Shown here: one piece after another, positions 55,183-61,511 of the stretch
Layout: each line of letters begins with the position of its first letter
Numbering within the stretch: position 1 is the first letter of the stretch
Notes under the pieces: generated by a model
The model's database searches: none
What the model was told of the DNA's origin: nothing
What the model saw: the letters and a program-made list of their open reading frames with translations, nothing else
DNA from: a bacterium
GTDB lineage: Bacteria; Patescibacteriota; Dojkabacteria; JAKAPS01; JAJZLI01
Assembly: GCA_021816845.1 (NCBI GenBank)
Contig: JAKAWT010000001.1
Span: 408,209 to 472,208 of the forward strand
Reading direction: 5' to 3'
DNA: 64,000 nucleotides
Program-made: the position numbers and the translations under genes

Positions 55183-55591
55183 TATATGGTGGAGATGGTG
55201 GGGATCGAACCCACATCCAATGAAGTTATTATATATATGGAATTACAAGTTTACCAATTTAAAATTTTAAAGATAATTATTCAAAAATTAGCAAACAATA
55301 ATTACCCTGATACTGTTCTTAATGTCATACTAAATCGTAGGTATCATAATTTAATATCTAGCTTATCTTTGTTTAAACAAAATAATAAACTCAAGCAGGT
55401 TTACTATTTCATCCTAAATGTACTGTTTAGGCAACATTTAGATAGAAAGCAGGTTTTGCAAATATAGAGTTAACTACTGTGCTAACCTTACTTTTTATAT
55501 TGTTTACATTTGTGTTTTTAGAAATTTTTTAAAAGATTTCTAAATCTTTACTTGCCATTTATATAACAGAATTCCTTGTCAAGACCGATCA
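55183..55591 (-). ncRNA. ssrA: tmRNA (transfer-messenger RNA, SsrA), about 409 nt with encoded CCA
   Basis: Read by hand on the minus strand. 5' end GGGGATG pairs with the 3' acceptor strand CATCTCC and includes a G3:U70 pair, the alanine identity element. T-arm GTGGG-TTCGATC-CCCAC followed by ACCA. Internal reading frame GCA AAA CCT GCT TTC TAT CTA AAT GTT GCC TAA gives the tag AKPAFYLNVA. The stop codon sits in the loop of a hairpin CTAAATGT...ACATTTAG, as in helix 5 of tmRNAs. Confidence 0.8.
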
Positions 55592-55662
55592 TCCCCATAT
55601 TTATTTATAATTAAAGAACACAACTTTTAATTTTACCATATTTATGTTAATCTTTCAATAAT

Positions 55663-56229
55663 ATGGCATACAGACACAAAGAAGATATAAATCTATTACA
55701 TAATGTTGAAGGTCCTGTGGGCTCTTTTGACATTTTTTATTCATGGGTATTTAAAGTAGGGAAACATATTCTAATAGGTGTTGAGGTTCTTGTTATTATA
55801 GCTTTTATATTTAAAATATTTTTAGATAGTACATATGCTAGTGTTGCACACAAATCAGAGTCTCTCCAGTCACAGCTGAGTTCTTCTTCAATGGTTAACA
55901 AAGTGAATAAGATTTCAAAATATCAGCAAAGTATTAATACAATAACAAGATTGGAAACATTTAGAGAAAAAACTGGTACTACTTTATATAATATATTACA
56001 TCTTATACCATCAGGTATAGTTGTCTCTAATGTAAGTTTAGATATTAATAAGTTCCTTATTTCTGGTACTGCAGTAACGTATGCTCAATTACAAGATTTA
56101 TCTAATAATTTTACCAATGATTCATCACAATTTAGTAATGTAATTATCCCACAACTTACTAATTCTAGCTTACAATCTATTAACAACATAAATTTTTCTT
56201 TATCTGCAAATGTAATTAATAAACAATGA
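55663..56229 (+). CDS. PilN-like type IV pilus assembly protein (putative)
   Basis: N-terminal INLL motif (DINLLHN) followed by a single TM helix and an extracytoplasmic domain; 4-nt overlap with the next ORF. Confidence 0.4.
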   Translation: MAYRHKEDINLLHNVEGPVGSFDIFYSWVFKVGKHILIGVEVLVIIAFIFKIFLDSTYASVAHKSESLQSQLSSSSMVNKVNKISKYQQSINTITRLETFREKTGTTLYNILHLIPSGIVVSNVSLDINKFLISGTAVTYAQLQDLSNNFTNDSSQFSNVIIPQLTNSSLQSINNINFSLSANVINKQ

Positions 56230-56852
56230 AGAGTTTTGATTATCAAAAAGAAAAAAAGTTATTCTTAGATAGCTTTAATAATAAAAGGTATGTACTTTAT
56301 TATTATATGAGCTTTTCTATAGTACTTATTATTATATTTGTTGCATTTATAATATACCCTATAACCACTGATATGATAAAGGAGAATAATCAAATTACTG
56401 CTATTAAAGCTATGAATGTTCAGATGCAAAACAGAATTAATCTTATTAACTCAACATATTCTGTATATTCTAATAAAGTAGCTAAAAATACTGCTGCTGT
56501 GAATGATTCTTTGCCTAAAAATCAGGATACTGCATTCATATTTGGAAATACTTATCAGATATTCCAGAATAATGCTCTGCAACTTGATTCTATTGATTTT
56601 TCAAGCAATATTAATTCACAATTAGAAATTGCAATAACACCATTTTTTGCATCTGCATTTCCTATAGATATTTCTGGGTCAGGAACATATCAGAATCTAT
56701 TATCTGCCTTAGCAACATTGTCTGCGTATCCCCAAAGGATTGCTGTTTACAATGTTTCTTTTGCTGTATCTAACAATAATTTAAGTAATAATTTTATCGG
56801 TTCACCTGGGCTGTTCCAATTAAGTGCAATAGTATTTTATTCTAAATTCTAA
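56226..56852 (+). CDS. PilO-like type IV pilus assembly protein (putative)
   Basis: Single N-terminal TM, predicted coiled-coil segment, and position directly after the PilN-like gene; weak assignment. Confidence 0.3.
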   Translation: MKSFDYQKEKKLFLDSFNNKRYVLYYYMSFSIVLIIIFVAFIIYPITTDMIKENNQITAIKAMNVQMQNRINLINSTYSVYSNKVAKNTAAVNDSLPKNQDTAFIFGNTYQIFQNNALQLDSIDFSSNINSQLEIAITPFFASAFPIDISGSGTYQNLLSALATLSAYPQRIAVYNVSFAVSNNNLSNNFIGSPGLFQLSAIVFYSKF

Positions 56853-56854
56853 TT

Positions 56855-57094
56855 ATGAAAAAGTTTTTTACTATTATAATTTTTACATTTGTAGTATTCA
56901 TATTATGGATAGGTTTTTCTCTTTATTCTGCTATATCAAAACCTCCTGTTGTAAATGTACCTCCATCAGATATAGCTAATTTTAATACAGATTTACAACT
57001 GAATACTTTAGATAATATTGTAAATAGTCAAAAATATATTTGTATAAACAATAATTTTACAATTAAATCTTGTTCTAATAAAACTCAGATATAA
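56855..57094 (+). CDS. Small membrane-anchored protein (79 aa), possibly the third member of the pil-like operon
   Basis: N-terminal TM helix with short Cys-containing C-terminal part; tightly packed after the PilO-like ORF. Confidence 0.3.
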   Translation: MKKFFTIIIFTFVVFILWIGFSLYSAISKPPVVNVPPSDIANFNTDLQLNTLDNIVNSQKYICINNNFTIKSCSNKTQI

Positions 57095-57113: not shown

Positions 57114-57446
57114 TTATTTTCTAACTCTAGCTGCTATAGCAAATTGCATAAAATATTTTTCTAATTCTAGTGCATCTTTATCATTAAATTTTTCACTGAA
57201 CAAATTACTAATGAATTGATCTTTAGAACGTAATACTTCTTTTGCTCTTATTGATTTTTTCTTTATAAGAGTTTCTACTGTAGCATCAAATAATTCTATT
57301 GCTCTAATTACAGATAGAATCTCATATTCCTTATTATTATCTCTTTTTGCTTTAAAAGATCTACTAATCTCACTATAGATATTACCCATCTGTTCAAATA
57401 TACTCATTCTTGACCATGAGTTATAATTGATAGTGTATCTATTCAT
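57114..57446 (-). CDS. Hypothetical all-alpha protein (110 aa), weakly MazG-like NTP pyrophosphohydrolase fold
   Basis: Acidic helix patterns (IFEQMGNIYSEI; EYEILSVIRAIELFDAT) loosely resemble the EExxE/ExxD helices of small MazG-like proteins; low confidence. Confidence 0.3.
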   Translation of the reverse strand: MNRYTINYNSWSRMSIFEQMGNIYSEISRSFKAKRDNNKEYEILSVIRAIELFDATVETLIKKKSIRAKEVLRSKDQFISNLFSEKFNDKDALELEKYFMQFAIAARVRK

Positions 57447-57784
57447 TTTGTTATTTTCCTTTTAATTAAATCTAATATTGCTTTACGAATCATTTCATCT
57501 TCAATATTCCGTGATATGTTATTTTGACTAGGACGAATATTTATCATAGAATCAAATTCTACAAATTTATCAGTATTAAACTCTTCGGGATACAAATTTA
57601 TCCCCCATATATCTTTCTGTCTAGATCCATTTTCTAATAAAAATTGCTCTCCATCAACATGCATTTCAAGATTAATTATTAGTAGTTCATTTTCTATATC
57701 TACTGCAGCCTTAACCAGATTACCATACATATTATGTGCTATATTTGTTAGATCTTTAATACTTATTGTATCTACTTGTTGCAT
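57443..57784 (-). CDS. Hypothetical protein (113 aa), upstream member of an overlapping two-gene cassette
   Basis: ORF only; no family recognised by eye. ATGA start/stop overlap with the downstream 110-aa ORF. Confidence 0.4.
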   Translation of the reverse strand: MQQVDTISIKDLTNIAHNMYGNLVKAAVDIENELLIINLEMHVDGEQFLLENGSRQKDIWGINLYPEEFNTDKFVEFDSMINIRPSQNNISRNIEDEMIRKAILDLIKRKITK

Positions 57785-57883
57785 TCCTTGATTTTACATT
57801 AAAATTTAACATTTTTCTACATATTTATTCATCATATAGCTGACATTAGTAATATTACTTTAAGAATACATGTGTTGGTCATA

Positions 57884-58006
57884 TTGACAATAAAATAGTA
57901 ATATGATATATATATACACATACATTATTACGACTTGATGAAGGTTGATCACCAGTAAAAATATAGATTTTTACAAAGCCTCTGTTGCGCTCAGGGGTAT
58001 TTTTGT
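57884..58006 (+). promoter_or_regulatory. rpoB leader: sigma70-like promoter plus terminator-like hairpin (candidate attenuator)
   Basis: TTGACA(57884-57889)-17 nt-TATATA(57907-57912). Hairpin CCTCTG-TTGCGCT-CAGGGG (57979-57997) followed by TATTTTTGTGTGTTT, about 50 nt before the rpoB start. Confidence 0.35.
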
Positions 58007-58058
58007 GTGTTTAACTCTTTAAAAGTAATGTTTTTATTAATTATTAGAAAATAATATT

Positions 58059-61000
58059 ATGCAACAAAGAATCAACCTTGCTACGTCTAATAAATATAAT
58101 AAGTATTTTGAATATCCAAATTTAATAGAAGCACAGAAAAAATCATATGAATGGTTTTTAAGCGAACATCTTAAAGAATTATTTGAAGAAATAAATCCAG
58201 TTGTAGATAATACAGGAAAGTTATGGGTTCTAGAATTTCTAGATTATAGATTTGGTGATATAAATAGAAGTGTCAGAGAGGCTATAAGAAAGGGATTGAG
58301 TTATGACAAGTCTTTATACTTTAACGTAAGACTTACTAATAAAGTTTCCGGAGAAATTAAAGAGCAAGAGATCTTTATAGCTGAGCTCCCCATTATGACA
58401 GATAGAGGCAGTTTTATTATAAATGGTCACGAAAGAGTTGTAATTCATCAAGTAGTAAGATCTGAGGGTATACTCTTTACTGAAGGAGATAAAAAAGCTA
58501 TACGTAATAAAGTTTATTTTGCAAAGCTAATAACATCTATAGGACCATGGCTAACTTTTGAGGTAAATGCTCATAATGTTATGTCATTGAAGCTAGCACC
58601 AAAAAAACCTAAGATTCTTGTAACTACTCTTTTAAGGGCATTAGGTTATTCTACTAATACTGAAATTTCTAATTTGTTTTCTGATGTTGATACAAGTAGT
58701 GAATCAAGGTATATTGAATCTACTCTAGCAAAAGATCCTACACACAATAACAATGAAGCTGTTTTAGAGATATATAGGAAAATAAGGCCTGATATAGCGG
58801 TAAACTATGAAAATGCTTTGTTATATATAAATAGCTTGTTTTTTAACCCTAGGAAATTATTTCTTGGTAAAACTGGTAGATATAAATTAAATAAAAAATT
58901 GGGCTTAAATATTCCTGTAGAGTCTAATAATTATGTTCTCACTAATATGGACATAATAGCTATAATAAAAAGATTAATTCAAGTAAACAATGGGGAGATA
59001 GATCCTGATGATGTTGATTCATTATCTAATAGAAGGGTAAAGAGTGTTGGTGAGTTAATGGGGGACTATCTAAGGATAGGTGTAAGGAGAGTTGAGAAGA
59101 TAATTAAAGATAGGATGAGTATTATGTCTTCAGATGAAGTGCTTACTCCATCAATGCTTGTAAGTGCAAAACCTTTTGTTTCTGTTATAAATGAATTTTT
59201 TGGTAGTAGTTCTGTATCAGTATTTATGGATCAGGATAATATATTATCAGAAATATCTAATAAAAGAAGAGTTACTGCTGGAGGTCCAGGTGGTCTTACT
59301 AAAGAAAGTGCTACATTTTCAGTCCGTGATGTTCATTATTCTCAATACTCTAGATTGTGTCCTGTAGAATCTCCAGAAGGTCCACAGATTGGAATAGTCA
59401 ATCATCTTTCCGTATATGCTAGAATAAATGATTATGGTTTTATAGAAGCTCCATATAGAAAGGTATTTCATAGTATTTCATTTGATTCAGATGAACTGGT
59501 TGGAAGAATAATTAAAAAAGATGTAAAGGTAGATTCTAAAATATACAAAAAAGGGACTGTTATAGATAAAGATCTAGCTTTGAAAATAAAAAAAGCAAAA
59601 CTTAAAGATATTGATGTTATTGCTTATTTATCAAATGAGATTATATATTATGATGTAGATGAAGAGTTTAACCTAAAAATTTCGAGTTTAAGCGTGGAAA
59701 TAGATGAGTATGGGAATATATTAGATTCCGTGATACAAATAAGGTCAAGAGGTGAATACGCTTTAGGCTCTGTAGATGATATAGATCATATTGAAGTTTC
59801 TACATCTCAGATAGGAGGTGTTTCATTGAATTTAATACCATTTTCTGCAGGGAACAAAGCAGATAGAACTTTGATGGGATCAAATATGCAGAAACAAGCA
59901 GTTCCTCTTGTTAATCCAGAAGCTCCACTTATAGGTACTGGGTTTGAGTCTGTTGTAGCAAAAAATTCTAATAGAGCAGTATTTGCCTCTGGCAACGGGA
60001 TTATTGAATATGCTGATGCAGGGAAAGTTATTGTAAAGTATGATAAAGGTGATAAAGAAACATATTTTGTGGATAAATTTGTGCCTACAAATAAGAAGAC
60101 GTCTTTTTCTCAAACTGTTCTACTAAAAAAAGGTGATAAAGTATCATCTGGTGACATCATTATTGATGGACCTGGAATGGATAATGGAGAACTCGCTTTA
60201 GGCAGAAATTTAGTTGTAGGGTATATGATGTATGAAGGTTATAATTATGAAGATGGGATAGTTATATCAGAAAGATTAATAAAGGAGGACCTTCTCACTT
60301 CTGTACATGTACAATCTTACACACAAGATATAAAAGAGACAAGACTTGGTAATGAAATACATACAAGAGATATACCAAATGTTTCATTACACTCACTACG
60401 TAATCTTGATGAGCAAGGTATTGTTAGAATAGGTGCTTATGTAGAATCTGGAGATATATTAGTGGGTATAGTAGCTCCGAAAGGTGAAGTAGAACTCACT
60501 GCGGAAGAAAAACTTTTAAGATCTATTTTTGGTGATGTTGCAAAGGATGTAAGAGATAATTCTTTAAGAATCCCAAATGGTGAAAGAGGTATTGTTATAG
60601 ATGTGGAAATTTTAGAAAGGAGTGACGACTCAAATAAGTTAAACCCTGGAGTTATAAAACAAATTAAAGTTTGGGTTGCTAGAACACATAAAGTTGGATT
60701 AGGTGATAAATTATCTGGAAGATTTGGTGATAAAGGTGTTGTGTCTAAAATATTACCTGTAGAGGATATGCCATATTTAAGAGATGGTACTCCTATAGAT
60801 ATTATTTTGTCACCTTCTAGTATAACGAAAAGGCTTAATTTCGGACAATTAAATGAAATATATTATGGTGAGATAGCAAAACGTGCAGGACTAAATTTTG
60901 CTTTTCCTATTTTTTCTAGAATGGATGAAGGTAAACTAGAAAATATCAAGAAAAAATATGATGTTGGTGAAATTGAGGATAAAGTGTTACTGCGTGATGG

Positions 61001-61511
61001 TAGGAATAGTGAACTATTTGAAAATAAGGTTTCAGTTGGTCCCAGGTATATATTGATGCTAGATCATCTTGCAGATACTAAAGTGACTGCACGCTCCACT
61101 GGTCATTATACTGTTGTAAATCAACAGCCACTCGGTGGTAAAGCACAAATGGGTGGACAAAGGTTTGGAGAGATGGAAGTATGGGCATTAGAAGCTTATG
61201 GTGCAGCAAGTACTCTTCAAGAGATGTTGTCTATAAAATCGGATGATATTATCGGAAGATCTGAGGCATATAAGTCAATCATTCAGAATAAGAAGATTCA
61301 AATGGTTGGTATTCCAGAATCTTTTAAAGTTTTACTTTTGGAACTTAAATCTCTAGCTTTAAATATTGAACCTATTGATGTTGTTATAGAACCAACCCTG
61401 GAGGAAGCAGAGTCAGAAAGTGTTTTACCAGAAGATGTTTTTATAGATAATGAAGAAGAAGTTAACGTAGTCTTAAACGATAATAGTATCGAAAGTTTAG
61501 AAGAAGAATAG
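58059..61511 (+). CDS. rpoB: DNA-directed RNA polymerase subunit beta
   Basis: 1150 aa with conserved beta-subunit blocks throughout (rifampicin-binding region, GDK..GRFGDKGV active-site region, C-terminal clamp). Confidence 0.95.
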   Translation: MQQRINLATSNKYNKYFEYPNLIEAQKKSYEWFLSEHLKELFEEINPVVDNTGKLWVLEFLDYRFGDINRSVREAIRKGLSYDKSLYFNVRLTNKVSGEIKEQEIFIAELPIMTDRGSFIINGHERVVIHQVVRSEGILFTEGDKKAIRNKVYFAKLITSIGPWLTFEVNAHNVMSLKLAPKKPKILVTTLLRALGYSTNTEISNLFSDVDTSSESRYIESTLAKDPTHNNNEAVLEIYRKIRPDIAVNYENALLYINSLFFNPRKLFLGKTGRYKLNKKLGLNIPVESNNYVLTNMDIIAIIKRLIQVNNGEIDPDDVDSLSNRRVKSVGELMGDYLRIGVRRVEKIIKDRMSIMSSDEVLTPSMLVSAKPFVSVINEFFGSSSVSVFMDQDNILSEISNKRRVTAGGPGGLTKESATFSVRDVHYSQYSRLCPVESPEGPQIGIVNHLSVYARINDYGFIEAPYRKVFHSISFDSDELVGRIIKKDVKVDSKIYKKGTVIDKDLALKIKKAKLKDIDVIAYLSNEIIYYDVDEEFNLKISSLSVEIDEYGNILDSVIQIRSRGEYALGSVDDIDHIEVSTSQIGGVSLNLIPFSAGNKADRTLMGSNMQKQAVPLVNPEAPLIGTGFESVVAKNSNRAVFASGNGIIEYADAGKVIVKYDKGDKETYFVDKFVPTNKKTSFSQTVLLKKGDKVSSGDIIIDGPGMDNGELALGRNLVVGYMMYEGYNYEDGIVISERLIKEDLLTSVHVQSYTQDIKETRLGNEIHTRDIPNVSLHSLRNLDEQGIVRIGAYVESGDILVGIVAPKGEVELTAEEKLLRSIFGDVAKDVRDNSLRIPNGERGIVIDVEILERSDDSNKLNPGVIKQIKVWVARTHKVGLGDKLSGRFGDKGVVSKILPVEDMPYLRDGTPIDIILSPSSITKRLNFGQLNEIYYGEIAKRAGLNFAFPIFSRMDEGKLENIKKKYDVGEIEDKVLLRDGRNSELFENKVSVGPRYILMLDHLADTKVTARSTGHYTVVNQQPLGGKAQMGGQRFGEMEVWALEAYGAASTLQEMLSIKSDDIIGRSEAYKSIIQNKKIQMVGIPESFKVLLLELKSLALNIEPIDVVIEPTLEEAESESVLPEDVFIDNEEEVNVVLNDNSIESLEEE

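What the first reader, a model, noticed from the sequence alone, without database searches (positions are those of the whole stretch)
57114..57784. Overlapping two-gene cassette of small unknown proteins just upstream of the rpoB promoter
Two small ORFs (113 aa and 110 aa) on the minus strand share an ATGA stop/start overlap, which implies translational coupling. They sit alone between the pil-like genes and the rpoBC operon. The distal product has weak resemblance to all-alpha MazG-like NTP pyrophosphohydrolases; the proximal one matches nothing I recognise. Size, coupling and isolation are typical of toxin-antitoxin or nucleotide-signalling/defence pairs.
Basis: inference. Interest (0 to 1): 0.5.

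Follow-up and report, generated by a model that had tools for sequence, protein, structure and literature searches.

The report
Conserved DUF5674 plus helical-partner gene pair
The two overlapping small genes are real and form a two-gene unit of unknown function that recurs in many bacterial phyla; it is not MazG-like, and the evidence leans against a classical toxin-antitoxin pair without excluding one.

Summary
Observation confirmed. ORF A (57443-57784, minus strand, 113 aa) and ORF B (57114-57446, minus strand, 110 aa) share an ATGA stop/start overlap. Both are under purifying selection (dN/dS 0.08 and 0.15).

A B homolog lies directly downstream of A in 84 of 84 testable A loci. Stop and start overlap in 119 of 143 distinct pairs. 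About 10% of B genes stand alone, and A never does.

Neighbours vary, and the pair occurs in more than ten phyla. In one Saccharibacteria clade it sits between pheS and pheT and has diverged about as much as PheS.

Best reading (0.4): a stable two-protein unit, an enzyme-like acidic A with a basic helical partner B. A shows a weak, non-significant resemblance to the phosphohistidine phosphatase PHPT1. A toxin-antitoxin-like module remains a live rival (0.25). Function is unproven.

The parts
57443..57784 (-). Gene A, 113 aa: a DUF5674 family protein, acidic (pI 4.85), with a predicted alpha/beta fold
   Evidence: ORF. Pfam PF18924, E 1.2e-30, 106 bits against a cut-off of 27. 5456 homologous clusters. 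Model pLDDT 88. Invariant residues include K25, D29, E40, H42, E46, W60, G61, N63, E76, D78, S79, N82, R84, P85, Q87, N89, S91 and R92. dN/dS 0.079. pI.
57114..57446 (-). Gene B, 110 aa: a basic (pI 9.62) four-helix-bundle protein from a family with no Pfam, NCBIfam or PADLOC model
   Evidence: ORF. No family hits. 94 homologous clusters by word-index search and 991 representative clusters by full HMM search. Model pLDDT 94 with four long helices. Near-invariant W11, Q19, N22, E26, R29, R48, L52, E70 and Y98 across 113 diverse members. dN/dS 0.146.
57443..57446 (-). ATGA stop/start overlap between A and B (translational coupling)
   Evidence: Sequence. Overlap occurs in 119 of 143 distinct homologous pairs.
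57457..57461 (-). Shine-Dalgarno-like AAGGA inside the 3' end of A, with 10 nt between it and the B start codon
   Evidence: Read directly from the sequence. Its function is inferred.
57785..58058 (.). Divergent intergenic region between A and rpoB. It must hold the promoter of the pair, which has not been located.
   Evidence: Promoter-like hexamers on the minus strand at 57890-57863 and 57819-57791 are no more frequent than in shuffled sequence (14 found against 12.2 expected). The region is 89% conserved among three relatives, more than the coding DNA at 84%.

Best explanation
Gene A (DUF5674) and gene B (an unmodelled four-helix-bundle family) make up one autonomous, translationally coupled two-protein unit. 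I think the two proteins most likely form a stoichiometric complex with a stable cellular role.

In this reading A is a small enzyme. Its invariant polar residues sit at the N-terminus of helix 2 (E40-x-H42-x-D44) and in the two loops that follow helix 2 and strand 5 (G53, S54, Q56; S79-M80...R84-P85-x-Q87...S91). The layout resembles the active site of the phosphohistidine phosphatase PHPT1. B would be its dedicated partner, acting as regulator, adaptor or substrate, and it can also work alone.

Shown here: both genes are real and under purifying selection. The pairing, the overlap and the co-divergence of A and B are conserved. No other gene is consistently linked. Both models are confident. 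The pair has resided for a long time inside pheS-pheT in one clade.

Inferred only: physical complex formation, catalysis by A, the chemistry involved, and the cellular role.
For: Pairing:
- A B homolog lies directly downstream of A on the same strand in 84 of 86 A-centred loci. The other two are cut by contig ends.
- 68 of 76 testable B-centred loci have A upstream.
- Stop and start overlap in 119 of 143 distinct pairs.
- The A and B identity matrices correlate (r = 0.61; 0 of 999 Mantel permutations reach that value).

Autonomy:
- No neighbour family occurs in more than 7 of about 80 loci.
- The neighbour families are miscellaneous chromosomal genes, led by PheS.

Constraint:
- dN/dS is 0.08 for A and 0.15 for B.
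- Mean identity is 57% for A and 43% for B across the 140 distinct pairs, which come from many phyla and metagenomes.
- A has 31 invariant columns, many of them polar.

Stable inheritance:
- The order pheS, A, B, then 0-4 small genes, then pheT is seen in at least 8 Saccharibacteria loci by Pfam and about 12 by ORF pattern.
- In L065 every junction overlaps by 4 bp, and the 846-aa ORF is PheT.
- Between the same genome pairs PheS is 54-63% identical, A 56-65% and B 48-55%.
- Close relatives of this window keep the pair at the rpoB site.

Enzyme lead:
- A local hhalign alignment matches A 37-102 to PHPT1 48-112. It places EMHVD on EYHAD, which contains the general base His53, and IRPSQNNIS on YGPAQHAIS.
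- PHPT1's substrate site lies between the alpha1-beta4 and beta5-alpha2 loops and uses Glu51, His53, Ser94, Met95 and Ala96 (PMC4817053, PMC11277029).
- The most conserved loop of A (residues 79-92) is the least confident part of the monomer model (pLDDT about 51). That would fit a segment ordered by a partner or a substrate.
Against: - No complex model could be made, so the A-B contact is inferred from genetics only.
- Several features look more like a mobile or selfish cassette:
  - sequence clusters mix phyla;
  - divergent copies lie on 32 cyanobacterial plasmids, many predicted conjugative and several with two matched places per record, and two of the three regions inspected also carry IS transposases;
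  - a tRNA gene lies within 200 bp of the pair in 6 of 60 loci;
  - one IMG/VR contig has the pair beside a tyrosine-integrase-like ORF, by my reading of its translation;
  - some solitary B genes sit among TA-like genes, and one B domain is fused to a MazF domain.
- The partner of A in cyanobacteria is not detectably homologous to B (hhalign probability 1%).
Confidence: 0.4

Rival explanations
1. The pair is a new toxin-antitoxin-like (or abortive-infection) module. A would be the enzymatic toxin or effector, and B, made by coupled translation, would bind and neutralise it. Solitary B genes would be orphan antitoxins.
For: - It is a two-gene cassette of small proteins with a stop/start overlap.
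- A is never seen without a downstream partner (84/84 testable loci). B stands alone in 8 of 76 metagenome loci and in one Saccharibacteria lineage.
- B diverges faster than A (43% against 57% mean identity).
- In cyanobacteria A is paired with a partner that is not recognisably homologous to B, which looks like partner swapping.
- Copies lie on plasmids and can be multi-copy.
- Sequence clusters mix phyla.
- Solitary B genes in L114 and L124 lie among ORFs I read as HEPN/NTase-, RHH/MazF- and DUF4160/DUF2442-like (my reading of the translations).
- P0266 fuses a PemK/MazF domain to a B domain.
Against: - There is no hit to any PADLOC model and no Pfam hit other than DUF5674.
- Neither model is a recognisable DNA-binding fold.
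- The charges run opposite to the usual pattern if A is the toxin (A pI 4.8, B pI 8.8).
- Nothing was found in 50,697 phage records, and only 2 of 2.9 million IMG/VR contigs carry it.
- No transposase or integrase family is among the 25 commonest neighbour families listed.
- The pair is retained inside the essential pheS-pheT operon and has diverged about as much as PheS. That is unusual for addiction modules.
- Solitary B genes keep all the near-invariant polar residues.
Confidence: 0.25
2. One reading: B is a MazG-like all-alpha NTP pyrophosphohydrolase, and the pair acts in nucleotide house-cleaning or nucleotide signalling.
For: - B is a four-helix bundle of the right size.
- Helix 1 (E18-Q-M-G-N-I-x-S-E26) loosely recalls the EExGE helix of MazG proteins. 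That comparison rests on my recollection and was not tested.
- A few neighbours are nucleotide hydrolases: Ham1 in 4 loci, NUDIX in 2, HD in 2, and HIT and CYTH in one locus each.
Against: - No MazG-type Pfam or NCBIfam hit for the window protein. No family recurs in more than 3 of 113 diverse members at E<=5, and no MazG-type family is among the 25 families shown of 56.
- The metal-binding acidic motifs are absent. The near-invariant residues are W, Q, N, E, R, R, L, E and Y.
- The four Ham1 neighbours probably come from one group of syntenic oral Saccharibacteria loci, which would be a single event.
Confidence: 0.03
3. B is a FliS-like chaperone or immunity protein for A, and A is an exported effector used in the epibiotic lifestyle.
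For: - The pair lies next to pil-like genes in this window.
- The family is most common in Saccharibacteria and other Patescibacteria.
Against: - The pil neighbourhood is limited to close relatives.
- The pair also occurs in free-living phyla.
- I saw no signal peptide or secretion domain in A by eye. This was not tested with a tool.
Confidence: 0.05
4. The ORFs are spurious, arising by chance in AT-rich DNA.
For: None was found. The window is 29.5% G+C, which does favour long chance ORFs.
Against: Thousands of homologues exist across phyla with G+C from 26% to 71%. dN/dS is 0.08-0.15. Both structure models are confident.
Confidence: 0.005

Closest known systems
Pfam DUF5674 (PF18924)
   Same: Gene A is a full-length member (106 bits against a cut-off of 27). 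NCBI names close homologues 'DUF5674 family protein'.
   Different: The family has no assigned function. No paper in the searched library mentions DUF5674 or PF18924. I found no description of its obligate pairing with a helical partner.
PHPT1 / Janus-Ocnus phosphohistidine phosphatases (PF05005)
   Same: - Both are small alpha/beta proteins.
- The motifs are collinear: E-x-H-x-D at the start of a helix, and S-M...P-x-Q..I-S in the loop before the last helix.
- In PHPT1 these positions form the active site (PMC4817053).
   Different: No significant sequence or profile similarity was found. A has an extra N-terminal strand-helix unit and no equivalent of Arg78. PHPT1 works alone and, as far as I recall, the family is eukaryotic.
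MntA-HepT (MNT-HEPN) type VII toxin-antitoxin pairs
   Same: The architecture is alike: an upstream acidic alpha/beta protein of about 110-130 aa, a downstream all-helical protein of similar size, and overlapping genes.
   Different: A lacks the nucleotidyltransferase G-S...D-x-D motif: D29 is invariant but position 31 varies. B has no R-x4-6-H motif, and the window protein contains no histidine at all. No Pfam HEPN or NTase hit.
MazG-like all-alpha NTP pyrophosphohydrolases
   Same: Both are four-helix bundles of about 110 aa.
FliS flagellar export chaperones and other generic up-down four-helix bundles
   Different: There is no sequence relationship (6-12% identity) and no flagellar context. 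De novo designed bundles score higher, so the match reflects only the generic fold.

Membership tests
Pfam DUF5674 (gene A) | Score above the curated gathering threshold over the full model length | tested here: met
   106.2 bits against 27; residues 7-108 match model positions 7-107 of 109.
MazG-like NTP pyrophosphohydrolase (gene B) | Match to a MazG-type profile (Pfam or NCBIfam) | tested here: not met
   No family at E<=1 for the window protein. No family recurs in more than 3 of 113 members at E<=5, and no MazG-type family is among the 25 families shown of 56.
MazG-like NTP pyrophosphohydrolase (gene B) | Conserved acidic metal-binding motifs (EXXE ... EXXD) on the bundle helices | tested here: not met
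   The near-invariant residues are W11, Q19, N22, E26, R29, R48, L52, E70 and Y98. No conserved EXXE or EXXD is present.
MazG-like NTP pyrophosphohydrolase (gene B) | All-alpha four-helix-bundle fold | tested here: inconclusive
Type II toxin-antitoxin module | Two small adjacent co-directional genes, usually overlapping | tested here: met
Type II toxin-antitoxin module | One partner carries a DNA-binding domain (RHH, HTH, AbrB, Phd/YefM and the like) or matches a known antitoxin family | tested here: not met
   Neither protein has such a Pfam hit. The models are an alpha/beta fold and a four-helix bundle.
Type II toxin-antitoxin module | One partner matches a known toxin family or fold | tested here: not met
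Type II toxin-antitoxin module | Toxicity of one partner, rescued by the other | not testable with these tools
   This needs expression experiments.
Type II toxin-antitoxin module | Patchy, mobile distribution (plasmids, islands, several copies) | tested here: inconclusive
   For: clusters mix phyla, cyanobacterial plasmids carry copies, and tRNA genes lie nearby. Against: the pair has long resided in pheS-pheT, and no mobile-element family is among the commonest neighbours listed.
MNT-HEPN (type VII TA) | R-x4-6-H motif in the helical protein | tested here: not met
   The window B protein has no histidine, and no His is conserved in the family.
MNT-HEPN (type VII TA) | Minimal nucleotidyltransferase motif G[SG]-x9-13-[DE]h[DE] in the alpha/beta protein | tested here: not met
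PHPT1 / Janus-Ocnus phosphohistidine phosphatase | Match to PF05005, or significant profile similarity | tested here: not met
   A does not hit PF05005, although PHPT1 itself does. hhalign gives P 0.19-0.36.
PHPT1 / Janus-Ocnus phosphohistidine phosphatase | Same fold | tested here: inconclusive
PHPT1 / Janus-Ocnus phosphohistidine phosphatase | Catalytic His at the helix N-terminus (Glu51-Tyr-His53) and a Ser94-Met95-Ala96 phosphate loop | tested here: inconclusive
   Invariant E40-M-H42-V-D44 and S79-M80 in A align with these positions (PMC4817053). The alignment itself is not significant.
Known anti-phage defence systems (PADLOC-DB v2) | Match to any component model | tested here: not met
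   No family at E<=1 for either protein.

The most novel reading that the evidence does not exclude
DUF5674 would be a previously unrecognised bacterial branch of the PHPT1-type phosphatases that cleave P-N bonds (phosphohistidine, phospholysine). It would work as an obligate pair with a dedicated four-helix-bundle partner. In Saccharibacteria it would be tied to the translation machinery, being co-operonic with pheS/pheT and often next to tRNA or rRNA genes. That would expose an unknown layer of protein or nucleotide phosphoramidate turnover in minimal-genome bacteria.
Probability: 0.12. Interest if true: 0.75.

Novelty: new variant of a known kind. Interest (0 to 1): 0.5.

Why it matters
This module has thousands of sequence clusters in more than ten phyla, and it is kept even in the very small genomes of Saccharibacteria. 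Neither protein has an assigned function, a solved relative or any mention in the searched literature. One of the two families has no profile model at all.

The work here turns a single-genome curiosity into a defined and testable system. It now has a firm pairing rule, conserved candidate active-site residues in both proteins, a set of natural solitary-B variants, and a specific chemical lead (PHPT1-like hydrolysis).

If it proves to be a toxin-antitoxin pair, it would be a new family built from new folds. If it proves to be a cellular enzyme-partner pair, it would fill a gap in the poorly known core biology of Patescibacteria.

Tried and rejected
- **Sequence search of the PDB.** Single sequences and profiles of A and B gave nothing better than E 0.4.
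- **PHROGs, PADLOC and NCBIfam.** No meaningful hits.
- **Fold searches.**
  - A against viral structures (BFVD) gave nothing at E<=0.001.
  - The afdb50 library was not available.
- **Weak consistent Pfam hits across family members.** None were found for B (113 members), A (28) or the cyanobacterial partner (24).
- **Homology between B and the cyanobacterial partner of DUF5674.** hhalign gave 1% probability. Only a helix-1 motif is alike (MGNIxSExxR against LGHIASNLAR), so homology is rejected as unproven.
- **DUF3024, fused to B in P0326, as a hidden A homologue.** Rejected.
- **A riboswitch or other RNA element upstream of the pair.** None was found in the window or in 18 loci.
- **Promoter, operator and inverted-repeat search upstream of A.** Nothing exceeded the expectation from shuffled sequence.
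- **Phage carriage.** No match in 50,697 phage records.
- **Conserved third gene.** None.
- **Compositional anomaly.** None: the pair is 26.2% G+C and the window 29.5%.
- **Literature.** Searches for DUF5674, PF18924 and Saccharibacteria toxin-antitoxin found nothing relevant.

Full report
**1. The observation**

The window holds two minus-strand ORFs. A runs 57443..57784 (113 aa) and B runs 57114..57446 (110 aa). The TGA stop of A overlaps the ATG of B in the sequence ATGA. An AAGGA lies inside the end of A, with 10 nt between it and the B start.

The pair is convergent with a run of pil-like genes on the + strand (55663-57094) and divergent from rpoB (58059-61511). Only one copy of each gene is present in the 64 kb window.

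The ORFs are real genes. A has 5456 homologous clusters. B has 94 by word-index search and 991 representative clusters at E<=0.001 by exhaustive HMM search. Against a relative with 84% nucleotide identity, dN/dS is 0.079 for A and 0.146 for B. The G+C content of the pair (26.2%) is close to that of the window (29.5%).

**2. What the two proteins are**

A is a full-length member of Pfam DUF5674 (E 1.2e-30). An alignment of 28 homologues from several phyla shows 66% mean column identity and 31 invariant columns, many of them polar. These include K25, D29, E40, H42, E46, W60-G61, N63, E76, D78, S79, N82, R84, P85, Q87, N89, S91 and R92.

B has no hit in Pfam, NCBIfam, PADLOC or the PDB. Its model (pLDDT 94) is an up-down four-helix bundle. 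That fold matches thousands of chains. De novo designs and FliS score highest, and no MazG-type protein is among the 60 matches listed.

Across 113 diverse family members, with 25-48% identity to the window protein, W11, Q19, N22, E26, R29, R48, L52, E70 and Y98 stay nearly invariant. No Pfam family recurs among these members even at E<=5.

A is acidic (median pI 4.8) and B is mostly basic (median 8.8; 9.6 in the window).

**3. The pairing**

| Measure | Result |
|---|---|
| B directly downstream of A, same strand, in A-centred loci | 84 of 86; the other two are cut by contig ends |
| A upstream of B in B-centred metagenome loci | 68 paired, 6 cut, 8 with B alone |
| Stop/start overlap among distinct pairs | 119 of 143 (60 by 4 bp, 52 by 8 bp) |
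| Correlation of A and B identity matrices | r = 0.61; 0 of 999 Mantel permutations reach it |
| Mean pairwise identity | A 57%, B 43% |

A further Saccharibacteria lineage has an intact B (65% identical to the window protein) with no A within 5 kb. So A was never seen without a partner, while about one B gene in ten is solitary. These solitary copies keep the conserved residues.

**4. Distribution and context**

Saccharibacteria and other Patescibacteria dominate. Other hits come from Coriobacteriia (including the cultured isolate Adlercreutzia sp. ZJ176), Dormibacterota, Chloroflexi, Planctomycetes, Omnitrophota, Bacteroidota and others.

Sequence clusters mix phyla. For example, Coriobacteriia group with some Saccharibacteria, and contig G+C confirms that these are not mis-binned.

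No neighbouring gene family occurs in more than 7 of about 80 loci. A Pfam census of 134 nearest neighbours shows miscellaneous chromosomal genes, and no transposase or integrase family is among the 25 commonest listed. No match was found in 50,697 phage records, and only two IMG/VR contigs carry the pair.

A divergent DUF5674 subfamily (about 45% identity) lies on 32 cyanobacterial plasmids, several with two matched places in one record. In the three regions inspected it is followed by an overlapping 115-118 aa ORF. That partner is not detectably homologous to B.

**5. Evidence that bears on the toxin-antitoxin question**

For a selfish or defensive cassette:
- The pair is autonomous and sequence clusters mix phyla.
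- Divergent copies are carried on plasmids.
- There is an asymmetry: solitary B genes exist but no solitary A.
- B evolves faster than A, and the partner appears to have been swapped in cyanobacteria.
- A tRNA gene lies within 200 bp of the pair in 6 of 60 loci. I expect roughly 1.5 by chance if there is one tRNA per 22 kb; that estimate is my own rough calculation.
- One IMG/VR locus has a tyrosine-integrase-like ORF beside the pair, by my reading of its translation.
- Two solitary B genes lie among TA-like ORFs.
- One protein fuses a MazF domain to a B domain.

Against it:
- No known toxin, antitoxin or defence profile matches either protein, and neither model is a DNA-binding fold.
- In a large Saccharibacteria group the order is pheS, A, B, then 0-4 variable small genes, then pheT.
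- In L065 all junctions overlap by 4 bp, and the 846-aa ORF is PheT by five Pfam domains.
- Between the same genome pairs PheS is 54-63% identical, A 56-65% and B 48-55%. So the pair has stayed in an essential operon for as long as PheS took to diverge that far, and A has diverged no more than PheS.
- Close relatives of this window (80-87% identical proteins) keep the pair at the rpoB site. Relatives at 61-65% identity have it elsewhere.

This pattern fits a useful cellular function that is sometimes transferred better than it fits an addiction module. It does not exclude the latter.

**6. A mechanistic lead for A**

Profile-to-sequence comparison is not significant (P 0.19-0.36). The local alignment is nevertheless collinear over A 37-102 and PHPT1 48-112. 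It places the invariant E40-M-H42-V-D44 of A on E51-Y-H53-A-D55, and I83-R-P-S-Q-N-N-I-S91 on Y97-G-P-A-Q-H-A-I-S105. With a one-residue gap, S79-M80 falls on S94-M95.

In PHPT1, His53 is the general base. Ser94, Met95, Ala96, Glu51 and Tyr52 line the substrate site, which lies between the alpha1-beta4 and beta5-alpha2 loops (PMC4817053, PMC11277029). The conserved residues of A occupy the equivalent positions: the N-terminus of helix 2 and the loops after helix 2 and after strand 5.

This is a lead and not a membership claim. PF05005 does not match A, and no equivalent of Arg78 was found.

**7. Verdict**

The MazG idea is not supported. The toxin-antitoxin or defence idea remains possible but is not favoured.

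My best reading (confidence 0.4) is a stable two-protein unit, an enzyme-like A with a dedicated helical partner B, and a speculative PHPT1-like chemistry. A new toxin-antitoxin-like family is the main rival (0.25). The function of both proteins is unproven, and the decisive tests are listed separately.

Noticed in passing
window 55187-55596 (-): A tmRNA gene (Rfam RF00023, 78 bits, full length). The 93-aa ORF at 55186..55467 (+), which gene callers also report in relatives, overlaps it on the opposite strand and is probably spurious.
   Followed up: partly
window 57785-58058, hairpin at 57978-57998 (+): The A-rpoB intergenic region is 89% identical among three relatives, more than the flanking coding DNA (84%). 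It holds a terminator-like hairpin with a T-run about 60 nt upstream of the rpoB start. This may be an rpoB leader or attenuator, or a small RNA. No Rfam family matches, and the fold z-score is only -2.1.
   Followed up: partly
L065 2967-7198; also L013, L033, L034, L049, L053, L058, L067 and others: In one Saccharibacteria clade the pair lies between pheS and pheT, with 4-bp overlaps at every junction in L065. Other members have 1-4 extra small genes between B and pheT (NYN, PNPOx, serine hydrolase, CYTH, HIT, cytidine deaminase, SDR). The pheS-pheT gap seems to accumulate small hydrolase genes.
   Followed up: yes
L011 223-6951 (Dormibacterota MAG): Here the pair sits inside an rRNA operon: 16S, a group II intron fragment, tRNA-Ala, tRNA-Ile, then A-B starting 77 bp further on, then 23S.
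   Followed up: no
L090-L092; L111, L114, L116, L124, L130, L147, L148, L149: These loci have solitary B genes with no A within reach, and the conserved residues are intact. L114 and L124 lie among ORFs that look like toxin-antitoxin genes (HEPN/NTase, RHH+MazF, DUF4160/DUF2442), judging from the translations.
   Followed up: partly
P0266 (280 aa) and P0326 (211 aa): Two rare fusions. P0266 joins a PemK/MazF toxin domain to a degenerate B domain. P0326 joins a B domain to DUF3024. DUF3024 is not related to DUF5674 (hhalign).
   Followed up: partly
L087-L089 (Nostoc and Anabaena plasmids): A divergent DUF5674 subfamily lies on 32 cyanobacterial plasmids, several with two matched places per record. 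In the three regions inspected it is paired with an acidic 115-118 aa ORF that is not detectably homologous to B. Two of those regions also carry IS transposases.
   Followed up: yes
L021, L043, L047, L066, L069 compared with L013, L034, L038, L055: The pairs from Coriobacteriia (Actinomycetota, a phylum that includes known hosts of Saccharibacteria, from my own knowledge) cluster with a subset of Saccharibacteria pairs. This suggests gene transfer between the two phyla. The direction was not determined.
   Followed up: partly
L011, L022, L038, L044, L051, L060: A tRNA gene lies within 200 bp of the pair in 6 of 60 loci, with six different tRNA identities. That is more than my rough expectation of about 1.5.
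   Followed up: partly
L176 3401-5666 (IMG/VR contig): The pair lies at the end of a predicted viral contig. Beside it are ORFs that I read, from their translations, as a tyrosine integrase and an amidase (endolysin-like). It may lie just outside a prophage boundary.
   Followed up: no
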